The notes: generated from the letters alone by a model not told the origin. A stretch of DNA of 64,000 nucleotides from Polyangiaceae bacterium (GCA_965225775.1 OZ245328.1:5564914-5628913); one strand, 5' to 3'. Shown: positions 30,922 through 58,201, counted from the first letter of the stretch. Made by a program: numbers and translations.

Positions 30922-31003
30922 GTTTCACTTCGTGTAGGCACGCGTGCCACGCTTCGCCTGCGGACGCGAATCTTCGCGGCTGCTGGACACCAGAGAGCGG
31001 GAC

Positions 31004-32998: not shown

Positions 32999-33330
32999 CG
33001 GCTCGCCGGCCTCTCCCGGGCCGACGACCGTCTCGTGTGCGAACAATCGGCTCGAACCACGAGCCACAGGTTCGGGCTCTCCACGAGGGCCCGAACGAGC
33101 CCCGGCTCTCCGCTGACTCAGCTGATATTGCCGACCTTGTCATCGGAGGACGCTGTCCTCCGCCCCACGGGCAAAAGCCCGCTGGGGGCCCACTCCAGGT
33201 TTTGGGTCCCGGCCCGAGACGGCCACGCATATCAGAATCGTGACCGTCGACTTGAAGACCGGGGTGAACGAACGTCGAGCCCTGCTCGACCCGACGGGCG
33301 CCTCGCGCGACCCGTCCACGGGGACGCGCC

Positions 33331-45495: not shown

Positions 45496-46767
45496 TCAGA
45501 GGCAAGCGCCGAGCTCGAAATAGCCGGGCTTCGACTCGCGAAGGACGACCGGAGTGAACCCCACGAAGCCCACGAACTGGTCGGAGCCGTTCGCACACGC
45601 GTAGCTCTTGGAGAGCCCGCAGGTGTGCACTCGCCCGGCCAGAAGGTGCCCGTACACCGTGGACCCGAAGGTCTTGCAGGAGGTCCCCCCGGACGAATCG
45701 GGCGTCCCCGCGTCGACGACCGGACCTGCGTCCACGGGCGCCGAGGCGTCGGGCGTCCCGGCGTCGGAAGGATCTGGCGTTCCCAGACCGAAGAAGAGAC
45801 CGGCGTAGTACGTGGAGCAGATGCCGGCCGACAGAACGTACGCGCCAGGCGTTCCGCATCCATTGGCAGGAGCGAAGCCCGGCTCGATGGCCGTGCCGTG
45901 TCCCATATTGGGGACGAGCCACTTTTCGACCCGCGGCTCGCCGGCCGCGTCCCGATAGACGGTGTGGGTCGCGCCTCTCACGGTCTCGGTGACGTCCGCG
46001 GTCGTGTCCACGCCGGACACGTCGGCCCATTGTTCCACCAGCTCGTTCGCATTGGCGGGTCTAACGGTCGTGTCCGAGCTTCCTTGCCAAATGGAAACGC
46101 GCGGAGCGGCGTAGTTTCCCTTGGACGCACTCCGAGCGAGCTGCCCCCATTGGGCTGAGCTCTTGTCCACGTTGCCGCCCATACACGTGAAGGCGTCGCT
46201 CTGCGACGTCGCGCAACGGTAGGGCAATCCGGCCATGATCGCGCCGGCCGCGAACACGTCCGGATAGGCCGCGAGCATGACCGAGGTCATCGCCCCGCCC
46301 GCCGAGAGGCCGGTCACGTACACCCGTCGAGGATCGATTGAGTGGCGGGTCTTCATCGCCTCCACCATCTGCGCGATCGAGAGCGCCTCGCCCGATCCGC
46401 GTGAGACGTGCGCCGAGTCCCACCACTGGAAACAGCGGTTCGAATTGTTCGACGAGCTCTGCTGCGGGTAGAGCACGTGGAACTTCCACCGGTCGGCGAG
46501 CTGGTTCCATCCCGCGGCGGCGTACGCGTCGGCCGACTGCGTGCAGCCGTGGAGCGCGACCACGAGGGGAGCGTCGTCGGGCACGCCGGCCGGCGTGTAC
46601 TCGAACATGGAGAGCTTGCCGGGGTTCGACCCGAAGCTCGTCACTTGCGTCAGGGCGAGGCCTTCCGCCCGTGTCGCCTCGGAGCCGTCCCCTTCGCCGC
46701 CGCACGCGGCGACCGAGACACCGAGACCGAGAATCACCTTCGCCGAGACACTGCGTGCATTCCACAT
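45496..46767 (-). CDS. secreted esterase, PHB depolymerase family (LpqC-like) with C-terminal Cys-containing domain
   Basis: ATG 46767, lipoprotein signal ...AACGG; LVVALHGCTQSADAYAA and GLSAGGAMTS (GxSxG) motifs. Confidence 0.75.
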   Translation of the reverse strand: MWNARSVSAKVILGLGVSVAACGGEGDGSEATRAEGLALTQVTSFGSNPGKLSMFEYTPAGVPDDAPLVVALHGCTQSADAYAAAGWNQLADRWKFHVLYPQQSSSNNSNRCFQWWDSAHVSRGSGEALSIAQMVEAMKTRHSIDPRRVYVTGLSAGGAMTSVMLAAYPDVFAAGAIMAGLPYRCATSQSDAFTCMGGNVDKSSAQWGQLARSASKGNYAAPRVSIWQGSSDTTVRPANANELVEQWADVSGVDTTADVTETVRGATHTVYRDAAGEPRVEKWLVPNMGHGTAIEPGFAPANGCGTPGAYVLSAGICSTYYAGLFFGLGTPDPSDAGTPDASAPVDAGPVVDAGTPDSSGGTSCKTFGSTVYGHLLAGRVHTCGLSKSYACANGSDQFVGFVGFTPVVLRESKPGYFELGACL

Positions 46768-47006
46768 GGCCAGGACCTCCACGCGCTCGATCGTGAGCGC
46801 GGGCGACCCTTCAGCAGGTTCCATGCCGCCATGCGTTACAATCGATTCGCTTGGTTTCTCCTACACATGCGTCGCCAATGACGCAACACAGCATTCATCC
46901 CGCGCGTCACAAATGACGCAGCGCGCCCTCTCCGCGTGCGGGCACGCGTGGCCCGCTCGCCCCTTTCGAGTCGAGCGAGCGGGCGGTCCACGGGAAGGTC
47001 ACGCTC

Positions 47007-47290: not shown

Positions 47291-48247
47291 TCAGACGCCG
47301 AAGCGCGCCGGGTCCTTCTGCACGAACGCCACGTACGCTTCGCTCGGCAGGTGCGGCTCGATCTCGCCCGACTCCACGGCCTTCTCGAGCTCGCGCTTGA
47401 TATCGCCGACGAGACGAGAGGGAGGGAGCCCGAAGGCCTTCATGACCTCGTCTCCGACCCCCTTGGGCAGCGGCGGCTTCACCGCGTCTTCGGCGGCCAG
47501 GCGCGCGATACGTGCCGCGAGCTCTTCGATCTGCTGGAGGCCCCTGCGCTTCTTTTCGGGGCGCTTCGTGGTGATGTCCGCGCGCGCGAGGCAGAGCAAA
47601 TCTTCGAGGTGCAGGCCGAGCTCCCTAGCGAAGCGACGCACGGCGCTGTCGGTCCACTCCGGGTCGTACTGATTGGCGCGCAGGTGATGGAGCACCAGGA
47701 AACGCACCGTTTCCTTCAGAGATGCTTCGGGCGTGAACAGGCCGAGGCGGCGGTCGAGCTTGTCGAACATGCGCGTGCCCACCTCGGCGTGCCCGAGGAA
47801 GTGCACCTTTCCGTCCGGGCTGATGCTGCGGGTCTTCACCTTGCCGATATCGTGGAAGAGCGAAGCCCAGCGCACCTCGAGCCGAGGCACCGCCTGACGC
47901 ACCACTTGCTTCGTGTGCTTCCACACGTCCTTGTGCCGCCACTCGCCGTCACCGAAGCCGACCATGGCAAAAACTTCGGGAAAAATGGCCGAAAGCGTCC
48001 CATTTTCCAGAAGGACGTCGAGCCCGAGCTCGGGGTCTTGGCCCATGACCACGCGGTCGAGACGCGCACGAACCGCTACGCGATCGAGCTTCACGGCAGC
48101 TTTGAGGGCCTCCGTGTCGGCGCGGATCACGAGGCCCTCGTGGGCCCCCCGCTCGGATGCACACGCCGCTTGTTCGAGCGCGTCCATGACGTCGTCGAGG
48201 GAAGCCGGAGCCTGGGGCTCGATCTCGGGTTGTTCGACGGCGCTCAT
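47291..48247 (-). CDS. HD domain-containing protein (CCA-adding enzyme / poly(A) polymerase C-terminal HD-like phosphohydrolase)
   Basis: 318 aa; HD motif ASLFHDIGK, RWASLFHD..HFLGHAEVG; no nucleotidyltransferase head. Confidence 0.65.
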   Translation of the reverse strand: MSAVEQPEIEPQAPASLDDVMDALEQAACASERGAHEGLVIRADTEALKAAVKLDRVAVRARLDRVVMGQDPELGLDVLLENGTLSAIFPEVFAMVGFGDGEWRHKDVWKHTKQVVRQAVPRLEVRWASLFHDIGKVKTRSISPDGKVHFLGHAEVGTRMFDKLDRRLGLFTPEASLKETVRFLVLHHLRANQYDPEWTDSAVRRFARELGLHLEDLLCLARADITTKRPEKKRRGLQQIEELAARIARLAAEDAVKPPLPKGVGDEVMKAFGLPPSRLVGDIKRELEKAVESGEIEPHLPSEAYVAFVQKDPARFGV

Positions 48248-48371: not shown

Positions 48372-49031
48372 ATGCGCGCACGCATCGCTGCCTCCACGCT
48401 CCTCGTCGCCTCCATCGTCGCCGCTTGCAGCGGCTCGGCACCGAGCGATCTCTTCTCCACCGATATCGCCTTCGACGGAGGCTCGGGCACCGTCACACCG
48501 CCCGGCACCGGCACGACAGGCAAGGACAGCGGAGGCCCGACGACCAAAGACGGCGGCGTCGTCCCCGGAGAAGACAGCGGCATCGTGGAGCCTCCTCCGC
48601 CTCCTCCGGTAGACGCCGGCAAGCCCGACTCGAGCGTGCGCGACAGCGGCACAGACTCGGGCGCGGACTCGGGCACCACCGGCATCACCTGCGGCACGAG
48701 CTCGTGTGGCCTCGCCGATACGTGCTGCGCCATCTACAACAACTCGAGTGGCAACTACCGCTACGAGTGCCGCGCGGGTCAGGTGACGTGCCCCGAACCG
48801 TCCACGCAGATCGAGTGCGACAGCGCCGAAGACTGCGGCGCGGGCAAAGTCTGCTGCGGCGACAAGGCCTCGGTGGGCAACTACTACAACGACATCACCT
48901 GCAAGAGCTCCTGCAGCGGCAACGGCGACGTGCGCTTCTGCAACCCGGCTTCGCCCGCAGCGAGCTGCCCGGCCGGCAAGGCGTGCCGACAGTCCGCCAT
49001 CTTGCCGAACTACTACTACTGCGAGCCCTGA
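48372..49031 (+). CDS. secreted Cys-rich lipoprotein (about 20 Cys), hypothetical
   Basis: Lipobox VAACSG; Gly/Thr/Asp-rich linker then Cys-rich region; followed by a strong terminator. Confidence 0.5.
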   Translation: MRARIAASTLLVASIVAACSGSAPSDLFSTDIAFDGGSGTVTPPGTGTTGKDSGGPTTKDGGVVPGEDSGIVEPPPPPPVDAGKPDSSVRDSGTDSGADSGTTGITCGTSSCGLADTCCAIYNNSSGNYRYECRAGQVTCPEPSTQIECDSAEDCGAGKVCCGDKASVGNYYNDITCKSSCSGNGDVRFCNPASPAASCPAGKACRQSAILPNYYYCEP

Positions 49032-49059: not shown

Positions 49060-49096
49060 GCCACGGACAGTCGACTGTCCGTGGCCTTTTCCGTTC
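49060..49096 (+). terminator. Rho-independent terminator
   Basis: Perfect 14-bp palindrome ggccacggacagtc/gactgtccgtggcc followed by TTTTCCGTT, 29 bp after stop of 48372-49031. Confidence 0.6.
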
Positions 49097-49418
49097 ATCC
49101 CGCATCCCCGCTCGAGTCGGTCCCCCGAGGGCTCGGCCGCGCGGACGAAGAAGCCGACGGGTACTCCTGCTCTTCGATGGACGCGGACGAGCTCGACTCG
49201 GGCATCTTCGTGTCACGTTTCAACAGAACGAACAGAACGAAGAGCGTGGCGAGCGCGGCCGCTCCGGCGAGCACGAGTCGAGATTTCTGCACGCACCGAG
49301 CGTAGCTCCAACCCGACGATTTTCGAGGCATCCCGGGGCTTCTCGTGGGCCGTGGCAAAAGGCCTCGCCTCTGCGAGACACCCGTTCACCCTTCGTTCGC
49401 GGACGACAGGAACGTGGA

Positions 49419-51368
49419 GTGTCGACGGTGGCGCAGACCGTGCGCGACCCGTGGGACATCCGCACACGGACTGCTAGGATGCGCGCCAATATGCAGCTTC
49501 GTCTCGGCCGTGGTGTGGAAACCGCCCTTCACAAGACCGCTACGTTTCTTTGGCCTTGGGTTCAGCGAATGAACGAGCGCATCGAGCGCCCGGCAGCTCA
49601 CCCGAAGTGGGCGCCGGCGCCGCTCTTGAAGCGCAAGGAGCGCACGTTCCCCACCTTGGGCTTCCCGCGCGAGACCGACTCGCTCTGCCCGAAGTGCGTG
49701 AAAGAAGTACGCGAGGCCGTGCTCTCCGGAGAGCGTGAGCTCTCGTCGCTGATCGACGGCAAACCGGGCGAGATCCGCGCGCGCATCGTCGAAGAGCACG
49801 GGCAGGTGCTCATGCGCAAGACGTGCCCGAAGCACGGCGAGATCGAAGACGTGATGGCCGTCGACGCGCGCTTCCTCCAGCGCATCGAGAAGCTCTACCC
49901 GGGCCGCGACTACCTCGCGCCGCTCACCAAGCTGCGCGACCACGGCACCTCGAGCATCCAGTACGGCCGCGGGAGCGTGCTCGTGGTCGACCTCACGAAC
50001 CGCTGCAACATGATGTGCGACCCGTGCTTCATGGACGCGAACCAAGTGGGCTTCGTGCACGAGCTCTCCTGGGAAGACGTGACCAAGATCCTGGACGACT
50101 CGATCGACGTGCTGCCGCGCCGTCAGATGAGCATCCAGTTCTCCGGCGGTGAGCCCACGCTCTCTCCCCACTTCTTGCCGGCCATCAAATACGCCCGCGA
50201 AAAAGGCTATTTCGCGGTGCAGGTGGCCACCAACGGCATCCGCTTCGCCCAAGACCCCGAGTTCGCGAAGCAGGCCAAAGAAGCGGGTCTCCGCATGGCT
50301 TACCTGCAGTTCGACGGCATCGGCAACGAAGCCAACTCGCACCGCAAGGTGGGCAACCTCTACGACGTGAAGCTGCGCGCGATCGAGAACCTGCATGCTG
50401 CAGGTATCGACGTCATCTTGGTGGTCACGGTCGTCAACGGCGTGAACAACGAGCAGGTCGGCAAGATCGTCCAGTTCGCGATCGACAACGCCGACAAGAT
50501 CACGGTCGTCTCGTTCCAGCCGGTGAGCTTCACCGGCCGCGACGAAGACGTCGACGATGCCACGCGCAAGGCCCAGCGTTACACGCTCTCGCACCTCGCG
50601 AGGGACGTGAAAGACCAGTGCGGCTTCTCCGAGCCGCTTCGCGACTGGTTCCCGCTCTCGGCCATGGGTCCCTTCAGCGACCTGACGGACACCCTGCTCG
50701 GCGACCGCGCCGACTGGGGCAGCATGAAGTGCGGCTGCCACCCCAACTGCGGCATCGGCACCATCTTCTTCGTGAACAAGCGCACCAAGCAGTGCGTGCC
50801 GCTCACCGAGTTCTTGGATCTCGAGCAGCTCCTGCTCGACGTGCAGGACATCACCGACGCCGCCCAAGGCCGCAACCTGAGCGTGGCCGAGATGGTGGTC
50901 GCGCTCCTCAAGAACTACGACCCGCGCAAGGCCCCCGAAGGCTTCGATTTCCCCACCCTCGTGAAGCAGTTCATGAGCCAGACCGGCGCCCGCGGCAAGA
51001 AGGTGGGCGACTTCGAGAAGGACGCGCACGAGTTCGAGTGGCGCGTGCTCTTCGTGGCCGGCATGTGGTTCCAGGACCTCTTCAACTACGATTTCCGCCG
51101 CACCGAGATGTGCATCATCCCGTACGGCACCCAGATGGGCGAGATCAGCTTCTGCGCGTACAACACGGGCGTGGGCTGGCGGAACATCATCGAGAAGATG
51201 AAGGCCAACGCGAGCGTCGCCGATTGGTACCGCGAGCACGGACGCCACGCCGTGTACGCCAAGAACCAGAACCTGCCCTTGCCTCCTTCGCTCGGCACCA
51301 TCGTGAACGCCGAGGGCGAGCCCACGCTGAAAAAGCGCGTCTCGCTTCGCGTGCTCGAGGCTCGCTGA
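49419..51368 (+). CDS. radical SAM enzyme (649 aa) with N-terminal CxxC...CxxH zinc-ribbon/rubredoxin-like motif and large C-terminal extension containing extra Cys cluster
   Basis: GTG start; canonical CNMMCDPC (CxxxCxxC) rSAM motif, SGGEPTL glycine-rich SAM motif; N-term CPKC...CPKHG; C-term CGCHPNCGIG. Confidence 0.8.
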   Translation: MSTVAQTVRDPWDIRTRTARMRANMQLRLGRGVETALHKTATFLWPWVQRMNERIERPAAHPKWAPAPLLKRKERTFPTLGFPRETDSLCPKCVKEVREAVLSGERELSSLIDGKPGEIRARIVEEHGQVLMRKTCPKHGEIEDVMAVDARFLQRIEKLYPGRDYLAPLTKLRDHGTSSIQYGRGSVLVVDLTNRCNMMCDPCFMDANQVGFVHELSWEDVTKILDDSIDVLPRRQMSIQFSGGEPTLSPHFLPAIKYAREKGYFAVQVATNGIRFAQDPEFAKQAKEAGLRMAYLQFDGIGNEANSHRKVGNLYDVKLRAIENLHAAGIDVILVVTVVNGVNNEQVGKIVQFAIDNADKITVVSFQPVSFTGRDEDVDDATRKAQRYTLSHLARDVKDQCGFSEPLRDWFPLSAMGPFSDLTDTLLGDRADWGSMKCGCHPNCGIGTIFFVNKRTKQCVPLTEFLDLEQLLLDVQDITDAAQGRNLSVAEMVVALLKNYDPRKAPEGFDFPTLVKQFMSQTGARGKKVGDFEKDAHEFEWRVLFVAGMWFQDLFNYDFRRTEMCIIPYGTQMGEISFCAYNTGVGWRNIIEKMKANASVADWYREHGRHAVYAKNQNLPLPPSLGTIVNAEGEPTLKKRVSLRVLEAR

Positions 51369-51375
51369 GCCCCTG

Positions 51376-52371
51376 ATGCTTGCAGATTGCACGAGTACGT
51401 CGCGCGGAGTCTTCCGAGGCGTCGTGCTCGTGCTCGCAGGTGTCGCGTCGGCTTCGCTCGGGTGCTCCGGGGCACGGCGACACGAAGCGCAGGCGAACGC
51501 CGAGGCTTCGGAGGCAGGCGAACGCGTGGTCGAGATCGCCTCGGGCGGCCGCACGCGGCGCTACCTCTTGCACGTGCCTCCTTCGGGGGCCTCCCAAGCG
51601 AACAGGCCGCTCGTGGTCTCGCTCCACGGCGCGGGCGGAAGCGCCGCGTACATGGCCAAGAAGACCGGATTTTCGGCGCTCGCCGATCGCGAAGGGTTCG
51701 TCGTGGCCTACCCGGATGGCATCGACCACCGCTGGAACGACGGTCACGATCCGGAGAGCTCGCTCGCCAAAGAAGGCATCGACGACGTCGGGTTCTTGCT
51801 CGGCGTGCTCGCGGACGTCGCCAAGAAGACCCGCATCGATCCCACACGCGTCTACATGAACGGCATGTCGAACGGCGCGTTCATGACCTCGCGCTTCGCC
51901 TGCGCGCACGCCGATCGCGTGGCGGCCATCGGGCTCGTCGTGGGCACCATGGGCCCCGAGCAAGGTGCACACTGCACGTTCTCCGCGCCGGTCTCGGTCA
52001 TCGGATTCATGGGGACACGCGACCCCATCGTTCCCTACGAAGGCGGCGACGTGCGACTCGGGCCCTTCGTTCGCGGGCGCACGCTCTCCGCGGCCGAGGC
52101 CTTTCGCGTGTACTCCACGCTGAATGGCTGCGCCCCGTCCAACCGAGAAGACGTGGCGGATCGGGATCCGCGAGACGGCTCACGTGCGCACGTCGACGTG
52201 TCCTCGTGCGCGCGAGAGACGCGCGTCGAGCTCTATTCGTTCGAGGGCGCGGGCCACACTTGGCCGGGTGGCGATCAGTACATGGCCTCGAGCGTAGTGG
52301 GCACGGTGAACCGCGACGTGGACGCGAGCGCCACCATGTGGGCCTTCTTCACCGAGCACGGCCGCAAGTAG
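51376..52371 (+). CDS. secreted esterase, PHB depolymerase family (LpqC-like)
   Basis: 8 bp after rSAM gene stop; signal peptide; LVVSLHGAGGSAAYMAK, GMSNGAFMTS (GxSxG) motifs. Confidence 0.75.
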   Translation: MLADCTSTSRGVFRGVVLVLAGVASASLGCSGARRHEAQANAEASEAGERVVEIASGGRTRRYLLHVPPSGASQANRPLVVSLHGAGGSAAYMAKKTGFSALADREGFVVAYPDGIDHRWNDGHDPESSLAKEGIDDVGFLLGVLADVAKKTRIDPTRVYMNGMSNGAFMTSRFACAHADRVAAIGLVVGTMGPEQGAHCTFSAPVSVIGFMGTRDPIVPYEGGDVRLGPFVRGRTLSAAEAFRVYSTLNGCAPSNREDVADRDPRDGSRAHVDVSSCARETRVELYSFEGAGHTWPGGDQYMASSVVGTVNRDVDASATMWAFFTEHGRK

Positions 52372-52383
52372 CCGCGCGCGCCG

Positions 52384-53205
52384 TCAGAAGCCCGTCTTGC
52401 CGATCATCGATTTTCCACCGATGCCGTCGGCGGGCCACTCGAACGTCTCCTCGAAGCTCTTGCCGTCGATCGACGTCACGCGAATCGTGAAGGCGCCTTT
52501 GCCGAAGCCCTTCGCATCGGTGAGGGTACCGTCACCGCCGCGCTCGAGGGCGACGTAGTCGGGGTGGTTCTGGCTCTTCACCTCCACCTTCGCGACGGGC
52601 AAACGCACGTTGCGCACCCAAAGGCTCGACCACCACTCGCTCGCTTCGGTTTGGAACTCGTAGAGGGGCTTGCCCGTGTCCGCGCAGGACGCGAACTGCC
52701 AGCTCATGGTGCGCGGATACTCGCCCGAGTCGAGCAGCGCGAAGGCCTCGGGACTCACGTCGAGGCTATTTTTCGTGGTGTCTCCGTAGGTGACCACGCG
52801 CAAGAGCGCACTCTTTCCTTTGGCGGTTTTGACGAGCACACACGCATCGCAGTACCCCGCCACGTTGGGGATGCCCTGCCACAAGCCGGCGAGCAGCTGA
52901 CCTTGTGCCTTACGTGCAGCAGACGAGTACTTGGTGGCCGGCGCGCAGGCGTTGTGCCATTGGGTCTCTTCGTAGTCGACAGGGCCGAGATGGAACTCAC
53001 CGCCCTCGTAGGTCTCGCCGTAGACCACGGTGCCACCCTCGGTGGTCACGCCGGGCACGGGTGCGCTCGTGCCGGGGTCCGTGCCGGACGGATCGCCCGA
53101 GGTGCCGCTCGGCGAGCTCGGGCTCGTCCCCGTGCCTCCGCAGTGCAGTGCGAGCACGGAGATTCCCGCACCAAAGAGCCCGGAAACGATGCGTTTCGCC
53201 GACAT
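52384..53205 (-). CDS. secreted hypothetical protein (possibly double-psi beta-barrel/expansin-like fold)
   Basis: 273 aa from ATG 53205; signal + Ser/Gly/Thr/Pro linker; Cys pairs (HNACAP, YCDACV). Confidence 0.45.
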   Translation of the reverse strand: MSAKRIVSGLFGAGISVLALHCGGTGTSPSSPSGTSGDPSGTDPGTSAPVPGVTTEGGTVVYGETYEGGEFHLGPVDYEETQWHNACAPATKYSSAARKAQGQLLAGLWQGIPNVAGYCDACVLVKTAKGKSALLRVVTYGDTTKNSLDVSPEAFALLDSGEYPRTMSWQFASCADTGKPLYEFQTEASEWWSSLWVRNVRLPVAKVEVKSQNHPDYVALERGGDGTLTDAKGFGKGAFTIRVTSIDGKSFEETFEWPADGIGGKSMIGKTGF

Positions 53206-53282
53206 GGAGAGCAGCGTAGCAGAGGTGCATCGAAGGACGAGGGCTGGTCCGCCGGCACGAATGCCCGCATGCTCCTCCGGCC

Positions 53283-54770
53283 ATGACCGCCGCCCCCGCC
53301 GTTCTCCCGCGTGCCACGAGCCAGGAGCTCGCTGCACTCTACACGCGTGCCTCGGCCAACGTGCCCGACGAGCGCCGTGAGGTCTTGCACGTGCGCGAAG
53401 GGGCGCTCCCGTCCGAGCTCCGTGGCGTGCTCTTCCGCAACGGCCCCGGAAAGAACGAGGCGTTCGGCACCCCGTACGACCATCCGTTCGACGGCGACGG
53501 CATGGTCCTTCGCTTCGCCTTCGACGGACAGCGTGTGCATTACACAAACCGCTGGGTACGCACCTCGTTCTTCCTCGCCGAGGAGCGCGCGCGCCGCATG
53601 CTCTACCGAGGCTTCGGGACCAACCTACCGGGCGGGCTCGTGAAGAACCTCTTCCGCACCACCTTCAAGAACGCCGCGAACACCTCGGTGGTGATGCACG
53701 GCGGAGCGCTGTTGGCCCTCTGGGAAGGCGGGCTTCCTCACGCACTCGCGCCCGACACGCTGGCCACGCTCGGCCCTTACGACTTCGAGGGCCAGCTCGA
53801 CAACCGCGCCTCGCGACTCTCTCGCATGCTCGCACCGAGCCTGCCTTTCTCGGCGCATCCGAAGCTCTGTCCGCGCACCGGAGAGCTCTTCGGCTTCGGC
53901 ACGGCCTACGGCCCGGAGGACCGCTTGATGCTCTACCGCGTCTCGCCAGAGGGGCGCATGCACGAGCCCGAGAGCCTGCCACTCGAGCAGCTCACGTTCA
54001 TGCACGACTTCGTGCTGACCGAGAAAAACCGCCTTTTTTTCCAGGTTCCGGCGCGCTTCGGTGTGGCCCGCGCGCTCTCCGGATTGACGAGCCCGGCCGA
54101 CTCGATCCGCTTCGGAGAAGGACCCACGCGCATTCGTGTGGTCCCGCGCGACGGCTCGCGCGAGACGTGGTTCTCGGCAAGCCCGGCCTTCGTGTTCCAC
54201 TTCGTGAACGGCTTCGAGCGCGAAGACGGCACGATCGTGATCGACGCCATGCGCTCCGACCGTTTTCCCGCCATGCCCGATCCGAAGCGTCTTCGCTCGG
54301 GCGAGCCTTCGTACCCCGCGCCGCTGCTCACACGCTACGAGCTCGACACGAAGCGCGGCGAGGTGCGCGAGACCACGGTGAGCCGTGTGCCGGCAGAGCT
54401 GCCCACCGTGGCTCCTTCGGAAGCGACGCGTCGGCACGGGCTCGCCTTCGCCATCGCGGGGACCGAGCTCGGTTCGAATGAGAGGCTCACGAGCCCCTTC
54501 TTTTCCCGGGTGATCCGCTTCGACCGCACGAACGGCACCGAGAGCTACCGTGACTTCGGCCATGCCCTCCCGGGGGAGCCGCTCTTCGTCCCGCGAGAGG
54601 GCGACACGCGCTCGGGCTGGGTGCTCACGCTCGTGTACGAAGCGAGCCGCGACAAGAGCGCGCTCCACGTGCTGCGCGCCGAAGACCTCGAGACCGTGTG
54701 CGTGCTCGATCTTCCGCACGGCGTACCGCCGGGATTCCACGGCACGTGGGTGCCCGAAGCGCGCGCATGA
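53283..54770 (+). CDS. carotenoid cleavage oxygenase family (RPE65/CCD) protein
   Basis: 495 aa; family-typical GVLFRNGPGKN, DHPFDGDGMV, HDF, FHFVN, and C-terminal GFHGTW (Fe-binding His motifs). Confidence 0.85.
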   Translation: MTAAPAVLPRATSQELAALYTRASANVPDERREVLHVREGALPSELRGVLFRNGPGKNEAFGTPYDHPFDGDGMVLRFAFDGQRVHYTNRWVRTSFFLAEERARRMLYRGFGTNLPGGLVKNLFRTTFKNAANTSVVMHGGALLALWEGGLPHALAPDTLATLGPYDFEGQLDNRASRLSRMLAPSLPFSAHPKLCPRTGELFGFGTAYGPEDRLMLYRVSPEGRMHEPESLPLEQLTFMHDFVLTEKNRLFFQVPARFGVARALSGLTSPADSIRFGEGPTRIRVVPRDGSRETWFSASPAFVFHFVNGFEREDGTIVIDAMRSDRFPAMPDPKRLRSGEPSYPAPLLTRYELDTKRGEVRETTVSRVPAELPTVAPSEATRRHGLAFAIAGTELGSNERLTSPFFSRVIRFDRTNGTESYRDFGHALPGEPLFVPREGDTRSGWVLTLVYEASRDKSALHVLRAEDLETVCVLDLPHGVPPGFHGTWVPEARA

Positions 54771-54786
54771 CAGGTCCGCGCGAGCC

Positions 54787-56211
54787 TCATGGTGGCGCGA
54801 GATCGCGATCCTTCTTCATGGCCTTCGCGGCCACGTCGTCCGGCAAAAACGAGTAGTTCGAGCCGATCATGCCGATCAGGTTCCAGCGCGAAACAGTGGA
54901 GGTCACGCTGCCCGCGCTCGAGACCGCGTCGAGCGTGAACGCACCCGACGAGACCTTGGTCTCGGCCGACCCGTACGAAAACGAGAGCCCGAACGTGCCG
55001 CGTGTCTGCGCGCCGAGCAAGGTGAGCGCGAGGCTCCCGCCGAACATGTCGATGTGATCTTCGTTGGTCGATCGCCTCGGCACCGAAGAGAGATCGGTGA
55101 ACGCGCCGACCTCGACCGCCACGTCGGGCGTGATGCGCACCTCCGCCCCCACGTTGACGTTGGGCTGCACCACGCGCTCGAGAGTGAGGGGGGCAGCGTC
55201 CGCTCGGGGTGCCCCGTCGACGCGCTGAGGGACGACGCCCGAGGCAATCTTGATCGAGCGAGGCAGGTTCACCGAAGCGTCGGCCGACAGCGTGTACCCC
55301 TTTCCGAGACACGCGGCTCCGAAGGCGAATCGCAGGGGAAATCCAGCCCCACTCGTGCCGGAGAAACGAACCGGCGTGGCGTCGATCGAAGGACCCGAGG
55401 CGTCCAGCGTCGCCGACGCCACGTTGTAGCTCTGTCGATACGAGCCGTACACGTCCCACGTCGGCGTCGTGAGCTGCCAACCGAGCGCGAACGACCGCGT
55501 GGGCGTCCAGCGCACGCCGACCTTCGCGCGAAGCCCGATGGCGAAGGTCTCGGCCTCGGTGCTCGCGGAGACGAACTCGTTTCCCGCGACGCCGGGGATC
55601 GCGAGCGGTCGCGTGACGAGAAACGCCGTGGTGGTGTTCGAGGTGCGCAAGAGGCCGCCCGCCGACACACCGAGGGTGAGGTTCGAGCCCAATTGGTAGG
55701 CGTAGCCGAGGTCGCCCGCGAGCACGTCGTCGCGAATCGACGTGGTGAGGTAGTTGCGCGAGGCCGCGTTGGTCGGCTCGGATTTCAGGGAAATCGAAGC
55801 GGGAACCGTGACCAAGAAGCCGAACGTCTGACGGCCTCGTCTTGTCTCCTGCTCGCCTCGCGAAACGATGTACACTGCACCTACCGCACTCGGAATCGAG
55901 TGGTAGGTGGTCGCCTTCAAGTCTTGGCCTTCGCCGAGCGCACGGGGGAGCGAGTAGCTCTGAACCATGTACGCGTTGGCGACCAGCTCGAGGTGCGAGT
56001 GTTCGGCGCAACCGAGGCCGGCCACGTTGTAGTGGAGCGCGGCTTCGTCGCAGGCGAGCGCCGTATACGCGCCGCCCATGCCGGCTGCGCGACTGCCCAT
56101 GAGGTGCGACTGGTTGTCGTACACGGTGGCGAGGCCGCCGGCCCTGGAAGGCCGCGCCGCGAAGAGCGACGACGAGAGGCACGCCGAGAGAACCACACGC
56201 CGGACGAACAT
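54787..56211 (-). CDS. outer-membrane transport protein, OmpP1/FadL/TodX-like
   Basis: 475 aa from ATG 56211; signal peptide; beta-barrel pattern; C-terminal aromatic ...IGMIGSNYSFLPD. Confidence 0.5.
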   Translation of the reverse strand: MFVRRVVLSACLSSSLFAARPSRAGGLATVYDNQSHLMGSRAAGMGGAYTALACDEAALHYNVAGLGCAEHSHLELVANAYMVQSYSLPRALGEGQDLKATTYHSIPSAVGAVYIVSRGEQETRRGRQTFGFLVTVPASISLKSEPTNAASRNYLTTSIRDDVLAGDLGYAYQLGSNLTLGVSAGGLLRTSNTTTAFLVTRPLAIPGVAGNEFVSASTEAETFAIGLRAKVGVRWTPTRSFALGWQLTTPTWDVYGSYRQSYNVASATLDASGPSIDATPVRFSGTSGAGFPLRFAFGAACLGKGYTLSADASVNLPRSIKIASGVVPQRVDGAPRADAAPLTLERVVQPNVNVGAEVRITPDVAVEVGAFTDLSSVPRRSTNEDHIDMFGGSLALTLLGAQTRGTFGLSFSYGSAETKVSSGAFTLDAVSSAGSVTSTVSRWNLIGMIGSNYSFLPDDVAAKAMKKDRDLAPP

Positions 56212-56356
56212 GCCGCGCGAGTATCGAAGGGCGTGTCCGCGCCGACAAGATGCATGTTCGACGACCCGAGCTTCTCCACGAAATTCAGCCAAATCCCTCA
56301 TCTTTCGACGATCCGAGCGGGAACCTTCGACGCGGCGGCGGTGTCGGAGAGCGCCC

Positions 56357-58201
56357 ATGAAGCTGCCCTCGCGCTCGCGCCGTTCGTTCCTCGGGTCCTT
56401 CGGACCTGTCGCGCTCCTCGGCGCGTTCGCCACGGTGCTCCCGATCGACGAAGCACGCGCCGACAGCTGCTTCGCGGACGGCCCCCCGAACACCACAGCG
56501 GCCTCGGCGACCGAAGCCCTCGCGTCGGCGGAGCGCGCGCTCGCGGCCTCGCAACCGGAAGAAGCCGCCATCGGCTTCCGAGCCCTCGCCCTGCGCGAGC
56601 CCTCGACCGAGCTCGGCGCTCGGGCCGCGCTCCGCTACGTCGAGACCACGACGCGCATCGCCACGAGCTCGGAGCGCAGACGCGAACCTTGCTTCGATCG
56701 CCTGTCCGCCGACCTCCCTCGCGTGATCGAGCTGCACTGCCGGAGCGCGAGCACGAGCAAAGCCCCTTCCACCTGCGAGACGCTCGATCGCGTTCGGGTC
56801 GACCTCGGCCGGCTGCACGCGGAGAGAAAGGTCGCACTCGCGGACAAGACGAACGGCTCCGAGGCCAAGCGCCTCTACGAACAGGCCGCCGAAACCTACA
56901 TGCTCGCGTTCCGAGAGCATTGCACGACCTCCACGACGGTCTCGCCGAGCCTTCACTGCGACGAGCTCGCGTACAACGCCGCGCACGCGTTTCGCGCGGC
57001 CGGTCTCTCGACCCGCGCCATCGATGCGCACAAATCGCTCGTGGTCTTCGACGACGTACGCAAGGGCCAATCGCCACTCGCCCGAAAGTCCCTCTACGAG
57101 CTCGGCGCGCTCTACCGCGCACTGACGCTGTACGAGAGCGCAGCCGAGTTTTTCGAGCTCTACGCGAGCCGCGCAGAGGCCGAGCGCGAAGCACCGGCAG
57201 CCTTGTCGGACGCCATCGTGATGCGCCTCGCCCTCGGAGACGTCGAGCGAGCCACGAAAGACGTGGACACCTTCGTGCAGCTCTTCGCTGGCTCGAAGCC
57301 CGTGCTCACGGCGGACGCGATCTTCGTGCTCGCTGCACACGCGAAAGAGCACGGGGACACGGAGCGAGCCTTGGCCATCTTGAAGGGAAAGGAAGCCCTC
57401 TTCGAGCGTTCACCCGTCGACCTGCGAATCCGTGAGACGGCCCTTCGCGCGCGCGCCCATGCCGAGACCCCCGAGACGGCCGAGCTCGCGAGAGGCGAGT
57501 ACGCCATGGTCGTCTCGATGTGGGGAACCGGAGCTGAGGCGCTGAAGAGCCTCCAGCACGAGTACCCGGAAGCCGACGAATCCCAGCGGCTTCGTCGACT
57601 CGGCAAGTCGCTCGACGCGGTCGGCGAGGCCCTTTTCGCGGCCGCCGAAGACGAACGTCTGGCGCACGTCGAGACCGTGAAGCCTGGCGTGTACGCAGGG
57701 CCCAACGACGGCGCCGCCATCCTTCGCTACGTGAAGAGGACCGTGCCCGGCTGGGCGCAGAAGCGTCGAACCGCCATCCAACGAGCCGAGGCGCTCTACC
57801 GTCGGATCACCGAGCTCTCGCCGGTCCCGCCCCCGCGATGGACGGTGGACGCGACGGCGCGCGTCGCCGGTATGTGGGCCTCGTTCTCGAGCGACTATTT
57901 CCTCGTGGTTCCGAAGAGGATGAGCCACCCACCGAACGCGGACGTAAGCTCGATTGAGCTGCTCGATCTCGCAGGCGCCGGAGCGGTCCGAGCCGATCAC
58001 GCGAAGCCCGCGTACCAGCAGTGCGTGATGCTCTCGGTGCGCTACCAGTACGCGGACGAGCTTACGAAAGGCTGCGAGCGCTGGCTCGTCGGGCGGAGGC
58101 TTCTCTCCCCGACCGACGAGCTCGTGCCCGGCCTCCGGACAAGCTCACCCGTCACGTTCGCGCCGTTGACCGAGAGGTCGCACGAAACGGAAGCTCGCTG
58201 A
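56357..58201 (+). CDS. Tat-signal secreted helical/TPR-like repeat protein, hypothetical
   Basis: ATG 56357; twin-arginine SRRSFLGSFGPVALLGAFA; Ala/Leu-rich helical repeats. Confidence 0.5.
   Translation: MKLPSRSRRSFLGSFGPVALLGAFATVLPIDEARADSCFADGPPNTTAASATEALASAERALAASQPEEAAIGFRALALREPSTELGARAALRYVETTTRIATSSERRREPCFDRLSADLPRVIELHCRSASTSKAPSTCETLDRVRVDLGRLHAERKVALADKTNGSEAKRLYEQAAETYMLAFREHCTTSTTVSPSLHCDELAYNAAHAFRAAGLSTRAIDAHKSLVVFDDVRKGQSPLARKSLYELGALYRALTLYESAAEFFELYASRAEAEREAPAALSDAIVMRLALGDVERATKDVDTFVQLFAGSKPVLTADAIFVLAAHAKEHGDTERALAILKGKEALFERSPVDLRIRETALRARAHAETPETAELARGEYAMVVSMWGTGAEALKSLQHEYPEADESQRLRRLGKSLDAVGEALFAAAEDERLAHVETVKPGVYAGPNDGAAILRYVKRTVPGWAQKRRTAIQRAEALYRRITELSPVPPPRWTVDATARVAGMWASFSSDYFLVVPKRMSHPPNADVSSIELLDLAGAGAVRADHAKPAYQQCVMLSVRYQYADELTKGCERWLVGRRLLSPTDELVPGLRTSSPVTFAPLTERSHETEAR

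What the first reader, a model, noticed from the sequence alone, without database searches (positions are those of the whole stretch)
49419..56211. Large radical-SAM enzyme (possible Tes/MSS-like C-C lipid coupling enzyme) in operon with a secreted esterase, near a carotenoid-cleavage oxygenase and FadL-like channel
The 649-aa rSAM protein has an N-terminal CxxC...CxxH ribbon, a canonical CNMMCDPC cluster and an extra Cys cluster (CGCHPNC) in a long C-terminal extension. This layout is reminiscent of archaeal tetraether synthase (GDGT-MAS/Tes) and bacterial membrane-spanning lipid synthase homologues, although I cannot verify family membership by eye. It is followed at 8 bp by a PHB-depolymerase-type esterase. 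The neighbourhood also holds an RPE65/CCD oxygenase, a secreted Cys-containing beta protein and a FadL-type hydrophobic-substrate porin. Together these suggest a lipid or isoprenoid modification locus.
Basis: inference. Interest (0 to 1): 0.6.

Follow-up and report, generated by a model that had tools for sequence, protein, structure and literature searches.

The report
Bacterial Tes-like radical SAM lipid enzyme
This myxobacterial gene encodes a stand-alone radical SAM enzyme related to the archaeal enzyme that joins two lipid tails into membrane-spanning lipids, but it belongs to an uncharacterised bacterial branch missing one iron-sulfur cluster, and its neighbours show no conserved link to it.

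Summary
ORF 49419-51368 (likely start 49479) is a full-length homologue of archaeal tetraether synthase Tes/GDGT-MAS: PDB 7TOL E=3.6e-74, NCBIfam Tes E=2e-105, AlphaFold model against 7TOM TM 0.85.

It is not a Tes equivalog. It scores 353 bits against a cut-off of 450. It is about 32% identical to archaeal Tes by BLAST (35% over aligned columns). It lacks the N-terminal [4Fe-4S] cluster motif. The rubredoxin-like site, the radical SAM cluster, and the residues aligned to the C-terminal cluster (Cys/Met) and the conserved Tyr are all kept.

It belongs to a highly conserved bacterial clade found in Polyangia, many Acidobacteriota and Gemmatimonadota. This clade is separate from the bacterial clade that is 40-47% identical to archaeal Tes and probably holds the published "top" homologues.

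The "operon/lipid locus" reading fails. The esterase sits next to the gene only in a 99%-identical contig, not in relatives at 89-55% identity, and no neighbour is conserved across 85 loci. The esterase is secreted and feruloyl-esterase-like.

The most likely function is radical C-C coupling of lipid tails. This is inferred, not shown. It is a new member of a known but functionally untested kind.

The parts
49419..51368 (+). Radical SAM enzyme of the Tes/GDGT-MAS superfamily, in the bacterial clade that lacks the N-terminal cluster. The longest ORF gives 649 aa; the probable start is ATG 49479 (629 aa).
   Evidence: ORF list. Pfam and NCBIfam hits. PDB 7TOL E=3.6e-74. The gene call of the 99%-identical P0001 is 629 aa. 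AF2 model pLDDT 83.8, TM 0.85 to 7TOM.
49479..49673 (+). Clade-specific N-terminal extension (residues 21-85). It includes an amphipathic helix at 31-54 and the conserved WPWVQRMN / PKWAPAPLLK / FPxLGFPRETDS motifs. The aligned archaeal Tes sequences (485-520 aa) have no such extension.
   Evidence: Helix 31-54 is modelled at pLDDT about 96. WPWVQRMN served as a conserved scan pattern. MJ0619 has its first ligand at C9 (PMC9433317). No TM segment is present.
49674..49856 (+). Rubredoxin-like zinc-ribbon domain with a 3Cys+1His site: C90, C93, C136, H139. These correspond to MJ0619 C9, C12, C33, H36.
   Evidence: Pfam Zn_ribbon_HMPTM at 52 bits, above the 27-bit cut-off. Ligands are conserved 80/80; C136 and H139 are invariant across bacterial and archaeal sequences.
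49857..49991 (+). Linker (residues 147-191) where GDGT-MAS carries the [4Fe-4S]N motif CPYDCGLCPNH. Here there is no Cys at all, so that cluster site is absent.
   Evidence: MJ C73, C77 and C80 fall in alignment gaps in the query and in 80/80 relatives. Motif survey.
49992..50480 (+). Radical SAM core: the CX3CX2C motif (C196, C200, C203) followed by F204, and the GGEP motif (243-246). The QPVSFTGR loop (Q367, S370, R374) lies just downstream of this interval, at about nt 50517-50540. These match residues named in GDGT-MAS's 5'-dA binding and active-site-closing network.
   Evidence: Pfam Radical_SAM residues 192-354. Invariant columns in the 79-sequence alignment A2. GDGT-MAS residues Phe106, Gln268, Ser271, Arg275 (PMC9433317).
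50616..51239 (+). C-terminal auxiliary-cluster / lipid-pocket domain. C444, C565, C579 and M549 align to MJ C338, C455, C470 and the labile Met439. Y569 aligns to Tyr459. Two further clade-invariant Cys (C438, C440) form CxCxxxC.
   Evidence: Alignment to 7TOL. 80/80 conservation. Invariant across archaea and bacteria. Motif survey.
51376..52371 (+). Esterase of the PHB-depolymerase / feruloyl-esterase family (CE1-like) with an N-terminal signal peptide ending in ...SLGC, so probably a lipoprotein. It is adjacent to the radical SAM gene but is not a conserved partner of it.
   Evidence: NF050058 at 174 bits, above the 150-bit cut-off; Esterase_PHB. Nearest PDB entry is feruloyl esterase 9J07, E=6e-18. 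The adjacency is absent from all 85 related loci whose DNA was fetched; it is seen only on the 99%-identical contig. The signal peptide was read from the translation.
53283..54770 (+). Carotenoid / apocarotenoid cleavage oxygenase (RPE65 family). A neighbour that is not syntenic with the radical SAM gene elsewhere.
   Evidence: Pfam RPE65 E=1e-117. PDB 2BIW apocarotenoid-15,15'-oxygenase E=2.6e-72. No tblastn hit in the related loci.
52384..53217 (-). Secreted expansin EXLX1-like protein (a weak match). Neighbour only.
   Evidence: NCBIfam NF041144 at 81 bits, below the 100-bit cut-off. Pfam Expansin_C E=0.089.
54787..56208 (-). Probable outer-membrane protein of unassigned family.
   Evidence: No Pfam hit at E<=5. 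PorV/PorQ N-terminal match at 28.9 bits, below the 90-bit cut-off.

Best explanation
The gene encodes a soluble or peripherally membrane-associated radical SAM enzyme. It belongs to the Tes/GDGT-MAS superfamily, in a distinct and strongly conserved bacterial clade found in Polyangia, many Acidobacteriota, Gemmatimonadota and others.

**Shown by sequence and model.**
- It has the GDGT-MAS fold.
- It keeps the 3Cys+His rubredoxin-like site and the CX3CX2C radical SAM cluster.
- It keeps the SAM/5'-dA-binding residues.
- It keeps residues aligned to the C-terminal auxiliary [4Fe-4S] site (three Cys plus the labile Met) and the conserved active-site Tyr.

**How it differs from archaeal Tes.**
- It has lost the surface [4Fe-4S]N cluster.
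- It has gained a roughly 65-residue N-terminal extension.
- It carries two extra invariant Cys next to one ligand of the C-terminal cluster.

**Inferred mechanism, by analogy to GDGT-MAS.**
1. Reductive cleavage of SAM gives a 5'-deoxyadenosyl radical.
2. The radical abstracts H from an unactivated terminal carbon of a glycerolipid alkyl tail.
3. The substrate radical is parked as a C-S adduct on the C-terminal cluster.
4. A second SAM-derived radical on a second tail attacks that adduct and forms a C(sp3)-C(sp3) bond.

In a bacterium rich in iso-branched or ether lipids, this would give iso-diabolic-acid-type or brGDGT/brGTGT-type membrane-spanning lipids.

**Genomic setting.** The gene behaves as a solitary gene. 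Its 8-bp juxtaposition with a secreted feruloyl-esterase/PHB-depolymerase-type esterase, and its proximity to a CCD, an expansin-like protein and an outer-membrane protein, are species-specific. They are most likely functionally unrelated.
For: **Homology to Tes/GDGT-MAS.**
- 7TOL E=3.6e-74 over query residues 118-607.
- NCBIfam Tes E=2e-105 over profile positions 2-481 of 486.
- AF2 model pLDDT 83.8, pTM 0.87.
- Foldseek to 7TOM/7TOL: E=3e-39, TM 0.85. The next hits cover only the radical SAM core (TMq <= 0.29).

**Conserved catalytic residues.**
- Invariant columns across 79 bacterial and archaeal sequences include C136, H139, C196, C200, C203, F204, GGEP, Q367, R374, C444, M549, C565, Y569 and C579.
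- The same residues are conserved 80/80 in relatives from genome contigs.
- GDGT-MAS ligand and mechanism data come from PMC9433317.

**Strong purifying selection.**
- Polyangia members are 64-89% identical to the query; Acidobacteriota members are 55-63% identical.
- More than 120 Korobacteraceae-type clusters (clustered at 90% identity) are 92-99% identical to the L071 protein used as query.

**Clade structure.** It comes from the motif survey, an NJ tree and BLAST identities.

**No conserved neighbours.**
- tblastn of nine window neighbours against 80 loci gave no hits.
- Clustering of flanking ORFs found no shared family.
- A Pfam survey of 77 downstream genes found SurE as the most frequent family, in only 5.
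- Relatives at 89, 86, 82 and 78% identity have different neighbours.
- Only the 99%-identical contig repeats the window's gene order.

**Esterase.** It is secreted and feruloyl-esterase-like.
Against: **No experimental support for the clade.** No bacterial Tes homologue has been shown to make membrane-spanning lipids (PMC11868695, PMC13459092).

**Poor match to known lipid producers.** Using e<=1e-50 and >=30% identity, Tes homologues were found in only 3 of 14 acidobacteria that make iso-diabolic acid (PMC13159169). This clade therefore cannot be the general iso-diabolic-acid synthase.

**A closer bacterial clade exists.**
- The window's clade is only 30-33% identical to archaeal Tes.
- A separate bacterial clade is 40-47% identical and retains [4Fe-4S]N.
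- Both occur in the same Korobacteraceae genome (L071), which suggests the two have diverged in function.

**Structural uncertainties.**
- Loss of [4Fe-4S]N and gain of two Cys could mean different electron transfer or different chemistry.
- I could not read in the paper which Cys ligate [4Fe-4S]C in 7TOL. That assignment rests on universal conservation alone.

**Organism.** Membrane-spanning lipids have not, to my knowledge, been reported from myxobacteria.

**Divergent relatives.** Some relatives have lost the C-terminal Cys (Terriglobus roseus WP_014786616) or the radical SAM motif itself (P0247).
Confidence: 0.5

Rival explanations
1. The protein has the Tes fold and radical machinery but a different reaction or substrate. 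This clade would perform another modification of a hydrophobic chain. Examples are an intramolecular macrocyclisation, a mid-chain cross-link, or a sulfur insertion using the C-terminal cluster. It might also act on a non-glycerolipid such as an alkyl, polyketide or isoprenoid chain. It would not be making membrane-spanning lipids by tail-to-tail coupling.
For: - It scores below the Tes equivalog cut-off (353 against 450 bits).
- It lacks [4Fe-4S]N and has two extra invariant Cys (C438, C440) beside the C-cluster ligand.
- It co-occurs with a closer-to-archaeal Tes paralogue in L071.
- It matches iso-diabolic-acid producers poorly (PMC13159169).
- GDGT-MAS itself forms an S-containing lipid adduct (PMC9433317), so thiolation-type outcomes are chemically within reach.
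Against: - Every residue aligned to the GDGT-MAS catalytic and C-cluster site, including the labile Met and the active-site Tyr, is invariant.
- The whole C-terminal lipid-pocket domain superposes on GDGT-MAS (TM 0.85).
- No partner genes suggest a natural-product pathway.
Confidence: 0.3
2. The radical SAM enzyme and the downstream esterase would form a functional operon inside a lipid or isoprenoid modification locus, together with the CCD oxygenase, the secreted proteins and the outer-membrane channel.
For: - The gap is 8 bp, both genes are on the same strand, and no terminator-like site lies between them.
- The same order recurs on one independent metagenome contig.
- All of these proteins could plausibly handle hydrophobic substrates.
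Against: - The recurring contig is 99% identical, so it is the same species.
- Relatives at 89% (L085), 86% (L082/83), 82% (L081), 78% (L032, L084) and the other 79 loci carry none of these neighbours.
- The esterase has a signal or lipoprotein leader, whereas the radical SAM enzyme is cytoplasmic and has no TM segment.
- The esterase's nearest solved relatives are feruloyl and acetyl-xylan esterases. It sits among other secreted polymer-degrading-type proteins: a second PHB-depolymerase-type esterase and an expansin-like protein.
- The 'FadL' assignment is unsupported.
Confidence: 0.07
3. The protein would be a pterin C-methylase. This is the historic annotation of MJ0619 as 7,8-dihydro-6-hydroxymethylpterin dimethyltransferase (HMPTM), which still propagates in JGI names for this clade.
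For: - JGI names many members this way.
- In one Polyangia locus (L081) the gene is followed at 12-13 bp gaps by GTP cyclohydrolase I and a short-chain dehydrogenase.
- FolE homologues lie 1-5 kb away in five Vicinamibacterales-type loci.
Against: - The pterin methylase activity could not be reproduced, and the GDGT-MAS active site is a long hydrophobic tunnel occupied by lipids (PMC9433317).
- The acidobacterial FolE genes are convergent rather than co-directional, and those loci are related to each other, so they count as about one event.
- The window has no FolE within 64 kb.
- 79 of the 85 loci show no such link.
Confidence: 0.04

Closest known systems
Archaeal tetraether synthase Tes / GDGT-MAS (MJ0619; PDB 7TOL, 7TOM; NCBIfam NF045702; Zeng 2022, Lloyd 2022)
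   Same: - The overall four-part fold matches (TM 0.85).
- It has the rubredoxin-like 3Cys+His site and the CX3CX2C radical SAM cluster.
- It has the SAM/5'-dA contacts F204, Q367, S370 and R374.
- Residues align to the C-terminal cluster Cys (C444, C565, C579), the labile Met (M549) and the conserved Tyr (Y569).
- There is no TM helix.
   Different: - It is only about 32-35% identical and scores below the equivalog cut-off (353 against 450 bits).
- The [4Fe-4S]N motif (C73, C77, C80, His) is deleted.
- It has an extra conserved N-terminal extension of about 65 aa.
- It has two extra invariant Cys (CxCxxxC).
- The host is bacterial and makes no archaeol, so the substrate must differ.
Bacterial Tes homologues of the [4Fe-4S]N-containing clade (P0277-P0279, P0283; the second gene in L071). 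These are probably the Koribacter and Solibacter usitatus 'top' homologues of Zeng 2022 and Chen 2022.
   Same: - Same superfamily and same bacterial phyla (Acidobacteriota).
- Both are hypothesised to make brGDGT, and both are untested.
   Different: - Those proteins are 40-47% identical to archaeal Tes and keep the CPxxCGxCxxH cluster motif.
- The window's clade is 30-33% identical and lacks the motif.
- The two clades are about 30-38% identical to each other and co-occur in one genome.
- Equating the N+ clade with the named Koribacter and Solibacter proteins is my inference from identity values, not a direct check.
Bacterial membrane-spanning lipid synthase Mss (Thermotoga maritima, Thermoanaerobacter ethanolicus; Sahonero-Canavesi 2022)
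   Same: It is a radical SAM enzyme proposed to couple two lipid tails. That is the reaction type I infer for the window's protein.
   Different: - It is a separate radical SAM family, described as only remotely related to Tes.
- The diabolic- and iso-diabolic-acid producers screened in that study, including the two Mss source organisms, lack Tes homologues (PMC13159169).
- I had no Mss sequence available for a direct test.
NCBIfam TrsS radical SAM (seleno)protein (NF045646)
   Same: It is the second-best family hit: 225 bits over residues 118-402, covering the ribbon and the radical SAM core.
   Different: The score is far below the cut-off (490), and only the N-terminal half matches.

Membership tests
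Tes / GDGT-MAS (tetraether lipid synthase) | Full-length sequence and fold homology to the solved enzyme (7TOL/7TOM) | tested here: met
   phmmer E=3.6e-74, query residues 118-607 against chain residues 35-515. Foldseek TM 0.85, E=3e-39.
Tes / GDGT-MAS (tetraether lipid synthase) | Score at or above the curated NCBIfam equivalog cut-off (NF045702, 450 bits) | tested here: not met
   353.2 bits.
Tes / GDGT-MAS (tetraether lipid synthase) | Rubredoxin-like mononuclear Fe site C-X2-C...C-X2-H (MJ C9, C12, C33, H36) | tested here: met
   C90, C93, C136, H139, conserved 80/80. Pfam Zn_ribbon_HMPTM above its cut-off.
Tes / GDGT-MAS (tetraether lipid synthase) | N-terminal auxiliary [4Fe-4S]N cluster ligated by C73, C77, C80 and a His | tested here: not met
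   There is no Cys between residues 137 and 195. The MJ ligands fall in gaps in the query and in 80/80 relatives. The motif is present in the archaeal and N+ bacterial representatives.
Tes / GDGT-MAS (tetraether lipid synthase) | Radical SAM CX3CX2C cluster and SAM-binding motifs | tested here: met
   C196, C200, C203, F204, GGEP 243-246, Q367, R374 are invariant.
Tes / GDGT-MAS (tetraether lipid synthase) | C-terminal auxiliary [4Fe-4S]C with three Cys and labile Met439, plus conserved Tyr459 | tested here: met
   M549 and Y569 align to Met439 and Tyr459. C444, C565 and C579 align to MJ C338, C455 and C470. All are invariant across bacteria and archaea. Which MJ Cys are the actual ligands is inferred from conservation; I did not read it from the structure.
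Tes / GDGT-MAS (tetraether lipid synthase) | Catalyses tail-to-tail C(sp3)-C(sp3) coupling of lipid chains | not testable with these tools
   This needs lipidomics or an enzyme assay. No bacterial homologue has been tested (PMC11868695).
Mss (bacterial membrane-spanning lipid synthase) | Sequence homology (e<=1e-50, >=30% identity) to T. maritima / T. ethanolicus Mss | not tested
   No Mss sequence or model was available in the tools. The literature states that Tes is only remotely related to Mss (PMC13159169).
SPASM/twitch radical SAM peptide maturases and MoaA/NirJ-type enzymes | Score above the family cut-off, including the C-terminal SPASM/twitch domain | tested here: not met
   The best hit is NirJ1 at 84 bits against a 650-bit cut-off. 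All hits are confined to core residues of about 179-400. PDB hits SkfB and MoaA have E of about 1e-4.
Extracellular type-1 scl-PHA depolymerase catalytic domain (the neighbouring esterase, 51376-52371) | Score above the NF050058 cut-off (150 bits) | tested here: met
   174.3 bits, model kind hypoth_equivalog. The nearest solved proteins, however, are feruloyl esterases, so the substrate is open.
FadL / Toluene_X outer-membrane channel (54787-56208) | Match to the Pfam or NCBIfam FadL-family model | tested here: not met
   No Pfam hit at E<=5. The only match is PorV/PorQ at 28.9 bits, below the 90-bit cut-off, over 54 residues.

The most novel reading that the evidence does not exclude
Polyangia myxobacteria, together with the many Acidobacteriota and Gemmatimonadota that carry this clade, would use an N-cluster-less Tes variant to make membrane-spanning lipids. 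These would be iso-diabolic-acid, brGTGT or brGDGT-type lipids built from iso-branched or ether lipid tails. Soil myxobacteria would then be an unrecognised source of the brGDGT palaeoclimate biomarkers. It would also show that the surface [4Fe-4S]N cluster of GDGT-MAS is dispensable for C(sp3)-C(sp3) coupling.
Probability: 0.3. Interest if true: 0.7.

Novelty: new member of a known kind. Interest (0 to 1): 0.42.

Why it matters
**Why the enzyme class matters.** Which organisms and which enzymes make bacterial branched tetraether lipids (brGDGTs) is a long-standing open question. These lipids underpin widely used palaeotemperature and pH proxies. Bacterial "Tes homologues" are the leading candidates, but none has been tested.

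**A caution for genome screens.** At least two different bacterial clades hide under the "Tes homologue" label:
- One is 40-47% identical to archaeal Tes and keeps all four metal sites.
- The other, the clade found here, is 30-33% identical, lacks the N-terminal [4Fe-4S] cluster, and extends into Polyangia myxobacteria.

Published screens that call Tes homologues with e<1e-50 and >20-30% identity probably lump the two together. This window's member passes such thresholds against some archaeal Tes queries; other clade members sit close to the 30% line.

**Testable material.** Cultured carriers include Pendulispora and Polyangium fumosum. They offer aerobic, cultivable systems for testing the clade's function.

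**The instance itself.** This is one more copy of a very common gene, and its genomic context gives no functional clue.

Tried and rejected
**1. Synteny as a route to function.**
- tblastn of nine window neighbours against 80 genome loci gave no hits.
- All-against-all clustering of flanking ORFs found only shadow ORFs of the radical SAM gene itself, plus family-level synteny in 10 loci or fewer.
- A Pfam survey of 77 downstream genes found no recurrent family; SurE was the commonest, in 5 of 77.
- The cluster representatives annotate as phosphoglucomutase, PCMT, SurE and similar housekeeping genes.

**2. The FolE / short-chain dehydrogenase lead from L081.** I followed it with tblastn. It appears in six loci, five of them one related acidobacterial group with convergent gene orientation. 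I rejected it as functional evidence.

**3. Supplementary files of Zeng 2022 and Sahonero-Canavesi 2022.** I looked for myxobacterial entries and found nothing held.

**4. The third homology search, with an acidobacterial member.** The aim was to find named cultured carriers such as Edaphobacter or Solibacter. The top 120 hits were all near-identical MAG proteins (Korobacteraceae), so the question stayed open.

**5. Cys-Cys geometry in the model.** The AF2 coordinates are not exposed to the script tool, so I could not measure whether C438 and C440 sit at the C-terminal cluster.

**6. A second Tes-like gene in the window.** None was found.

**7. Window-wide Pfam survey.** It shows no ether-lipid, fatty-acid or isoprenoid cluster.

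Full report
**Observation**

The window is about 67% G+C. Its radical SAM gene has its closest relatives in Polyangia myxobacteria: Labilithrix, Pendulispora and Polyangiaceae MAGs.

The ORF at 49419-51368 (+) is real and has strong coding signal (GC3 0.90, GC2 0.41). A 99%-identical protein on an independent metagenome contig is called from M21. The likely start is therefore 49479, giving 629 aa.

- C90-x2-C93 ... C136-x2-H139
- C196-x3-C200-x2-C203
- C438-x-C440-x3-C444

All are conserved in 80 of 80 relatives retrieved from genome contigs.

The neighbouring genes check out as follows:
- The esterase starts 8 bp after the stop codon.
- The RPE65-family oxygenase is confirmed.
- The "FadL-type" channel is not confirmed. 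It has no Pfam hit even at E<=5, and only a short, sub-threshold PorV/PorQ match.

**What the protein is**

It is homologous over essentially its full length to the archaeal tetraether synthase Tes, also called GDGT-MAS (MJ0619):
- phmmer against PDB sequences gives 7TOL at E=3.6e-74, aligning residues 118-607 to chain residues 35-515.
- The NCBIfam Tes model matches at E=2e-105 over profile positions 2-481 of 486.
- An AlphaFold2 model built on 79 bacterial and archaeal sequences has pLDDT 83.8 and pTM 0.87.
- That model superposes on 7TOM/7TOL with target-normalised TM 0.85. All other PDB hits (HydE, MoaA, SkfB, viperin, LipA and others) cover only the radical SAM core, with TMq <= 0.29.

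It is not met.

**Where it departs from Tes**

The score of 353 bits is below the curated equivalog cut-off of 450. Identity to archaeal Tes is about 32% by BLAST, or 35% over aligned columns. By contrast, the best 120 hits to MJ0619, all archaeal where a source names them, are at least 52% identical to it.

According to Lloyd et al. 2022 (PMC9433317), GDGT-MAS has four metal sites:
- a rubredoxin-like Fe (C9, C12, C33, H36);
- a surface [4Fe-4S]N (C73, C77, C80 and His);
- the radical SAM cluster;
- [4Fe-4S]C, with three Cys and the labile Met439, lying near the strictly conserved Tyr459.

Mapping these onto the window protein gives the following:
- The rubredoxin site, the radical SAM cluster, Met439 (M549) and Tyr459 (Y569) are all kept.
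- The three C-domain Cys that are conserved in all the intact clade members and archaeal Tes compared (C444, C565, C579, equal to MJ C338, C455, C470) are kept.
- 5'-dA-site residues (F204, Q367, S370, R374) are kept.
- The [4Fe-4S]N motif CPxDCGxCxxH is deleted. There is no Cys between residues 137 and 195, and the MJ ligands fall in gaps in the query and in all 80 relatives.

The clade has also gained two features:
- A conserved N-terminal extension with a confidently modelled amphipathic helix at residues 31-54.
- Two extra invariant Cys (C438, C440).

There is no transmembrane segment.

**The clade**

A scan of one genome per GTDB species found at least 599 encoding loci. The best 80 fall out as follows:
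- Polyangia, at 64-78% identity.
- Acidobacteriota of many orders (Pyrinomonadaceae, Bryobacteraceae/Solibacteraceae, Vicinamibacterales, Korobacteraceae/Terriglobales, Thermoanaerobaculia, Holophagales), at 55-63%.
- Gemmatimonadota and Eisenbacteria.

An exhaustive HMMER search of 1.84 billion cluster representatives found 548 clusters at E<=1e-30.

A motif survey, a crude NJ tree and BLAST identities separate two bacterial groups:
- **The N- clade**, which contains the window protein. It has no [4Fe-4S]N motif, carries CxCxxxC, and is 30-33% identical to archaeal Tes.
- **The N+ clade** (P0277-P0279, P0283). It keeps the cluster motif and is 40-47% identical to archaeal Tes.

The N+ identity values match those published for the "top" bacterial homologues: Koribacter at 42% and Solibacter usitatus at 40% to MA_1486 (PMC8941075; bioRxiv 10.1101/2022.04.07.487437). 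The N- values match the 32% reported for Edaphobacter aggregans. This mapping is my inference. I could not retrieve those named proteins.

One Korobacteraceae locus (L071) carries both types about 6 kb apart. That suggests the two are functionally distinct paralogues.

Conservation inside the N- clade is very high. More than 120 clusters (each clustered at 90% identity) are 92-99% identical to the L071 protein used as query.

Some offshoots are degenerate:
- The Terriglobus roseus protein WP_014786616 has lost the C-domain Cys.
- P0247 has lost the radical SAM motif itself.

**Genomic context**

None of the window's neighbours lies near the radical SAM gene in any of the 80 genome loci. The neighbours tested were the esterase, the expansin-like protein, the CCD, the outer-membrane protein, the Cys-rich protein, the HD protein, the second esterase, DUF1993, and the large protein at 56078-58201.

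No other gene family is a conserved neighbour either.

Close relatives have different flanks:
- 89% identity (L085) and 86% (L082, L083): a 170-aa unknown protein downstream. L082 and L083 also have a sigma factor directly upstream.
- 82% (L081): FolE, a short-chain dehydrogenase, a LON-substrate-binding-domain protein and a Rieske protein.
- 78% (Pendulispora, L084): a convergent Ser/Thr kinase.

Only the 99%-identical contig repeats the window's order.

The esterase has a signal or lipoprotein leader (read). It is most similar to feruloyl esterases and PHB-depolymerase-family esterases. It sits among other secreted proteins, including a second such esterase at 45496-46824 and an expansin-like protein.

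A cytoplasmic, oxygen-sensitive radical SAM enzyme and an exported esterase are unlikely to be partners. Co-transcription in this one species remains possible, since the gap is 8 bp and no terminator lies between the genes. It is not evidence of shared function.

A Pfam survey of the rest of the window shows no lipid or isoprenoid gene cluster.

**Mechanism**

Shown here:
- the GDGT-MAS fold;
- an intact radical SAM site;
- intact residues aligned to the C-terminal cluster, Met and Tyr.

Inferred by analogy to GDGT-MAS (PMC9433317):
1. A 5'-dA radical abstracts H from the terminal carbon of a lipid tail.
2. The substrate radical is stored as a C-S adduct on [4Fe-4S]C.
3. A second SAM-derived radical on a second tail attacks the adduct and forms the C-C bond.

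The isopropyl terminus of phytanyl is chemically the same as that of the iso-fatty acids typical of myxobacteria and acidobacteria. That comparison is argued in PMC8941075. The lipid make-up of the two phyla is my own knowledge and was not checked here. An iso-diabolic-acid or brGDGT-type product is therefore the natural guess.

Against this:
- No bacterial Tes homologue has been tested (PMC11868695, PMC13459092).
- Tes homologues were found in only 3 of 14 acidobacteria that produce iso-diabolic acid (PMC13159169).
- The N- clade co-occurs with a more Tes-like paralogue.
- The loss of one cluster and the gain of two Cys could signal altered chemistry.

I put about 0.5 on lipid-tail C-C coupling and about 0.3 on a different modification of a hydrophobic chain. 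Small probabilities go to the operon reading (0.07) and the obsolete pterin-methylase annotation (0.04).

**Novelty and verdict**

Bacterial Tes homologues are already reported (Zeng 2022; the sequence similarity network in Lloyd 2022; Chen 2022; Halamka 2022; the Black Sea survey of 2025). This is therefore a new member of a known but functionally unverified kind.

Two points may be useful to specialists:
- There is an explicit split into N+ and N- bacterial clades, and the [4Fe-4S]N site is absent from the window's clade.
- That clade is firmly present in cultivable Polyangia.

Interest is moderate.

Noticed in passing
L081:8001-12244 (Polyangia MAG contig; radical SAM gene 82% identical to the window's): The radical SAM gene is followed on the same strand, at 12-13 bp gaps, by GTP cyclohydrolase I (FolE) and a short-chain dehydrogenase. 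After a gap of about 60 bp come a LON-substrate-binding-domain protein and then a Rieske protein. FolE and LON-domain homologues also lie 1-5 kb from the gene in five Vicinamibacterales-type loci (L041, L046, L047, L048, L058), but FolE there is on the opposite strand. This recalls the superseded pterin-methylase annotation of MJ0619.
   Followed up: partly
L071:6980-9085 and L071:15142-15860: One Korobacteraceae (Acidobacteriota) contig carries both bacterial Tes-like types about 6 kb apart. One is a member of the window's N-cluster-less clade. The other is the start of a gene with the CPDDCGLCGMH cluster motif; that fragment is 50-53% identical to archaeal Tes over about 175 aa.
   Followed up: partly
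P0245 (Terriglobus roseus DSM 18391, WP_014786616.1) and P0247: These are degenerate relatives of the clade. The T. roseus protein (45% identical) keeps the radical SAM motif and the Met but has lost the CxCxxxC motif and both C-terminal Cys. P0247 (44% identical) has lost the CX3CX2C radical SAM motif itself.
   Followed up: no
window 45496-46824 (-): This is a second, stronger PHB-depolymerase-type esterase (NF050058 at 331 bits) with a signal peptide and a Cys-containing C-terminal extension, 2.6 kb upstream of the radical SAM gene. Together with the expansin-like protein (52384-53217) and the Cys-rich secreted protein (48372-49031), it makes the neighbourhood look like a patch of secreted polymer-acting proteins.
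   Followed up: partly
window 23122-24030 (-): This stretch encodes a sigma-70-family protein 53% identical to the sigma factor that lies directly upstream of the radical SAM gene in relatives L082 and L083 (86% identical radical SAM genes). In this window it sits 25 kb away.
   Followed up: no
window 49095-49358 (-): A small 87-aa ORF lies in the 387-bp gap upstream of the radical SAM gene, on the opposite strand. It has one hydrophobic segment (LVLAGAAALATLFVLFVLL). The gene caller on the 99%-identical contig did not call it. Whether it codes is not assessed.
   Followed up: no
window 47291-48247 (-): This 318-aa HD/HDIG-domain protein matches only the C-terminal half of actinobacterial-type CCA tRNA nucleotidyltransferase (TIGR02692 at 165 bits, cut-off 439). 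It therefore looks like a stand-alone HD phosphohydrolase domain without the nucleotidyltransferase head.
   Followed up: no
window 30944-38850 (+): The region holds a very large ORF (1839 aa, 33331-38850) preceded by a 684-aa ORF. The window-wide Pfam survey found DUF3686 ('ATPase involved in DNA repair', E=1e-166) and DUF6986 (E=4e-105) somewhere among the window's ORFs. I did not check which ORF carries them.
   Followed up: no
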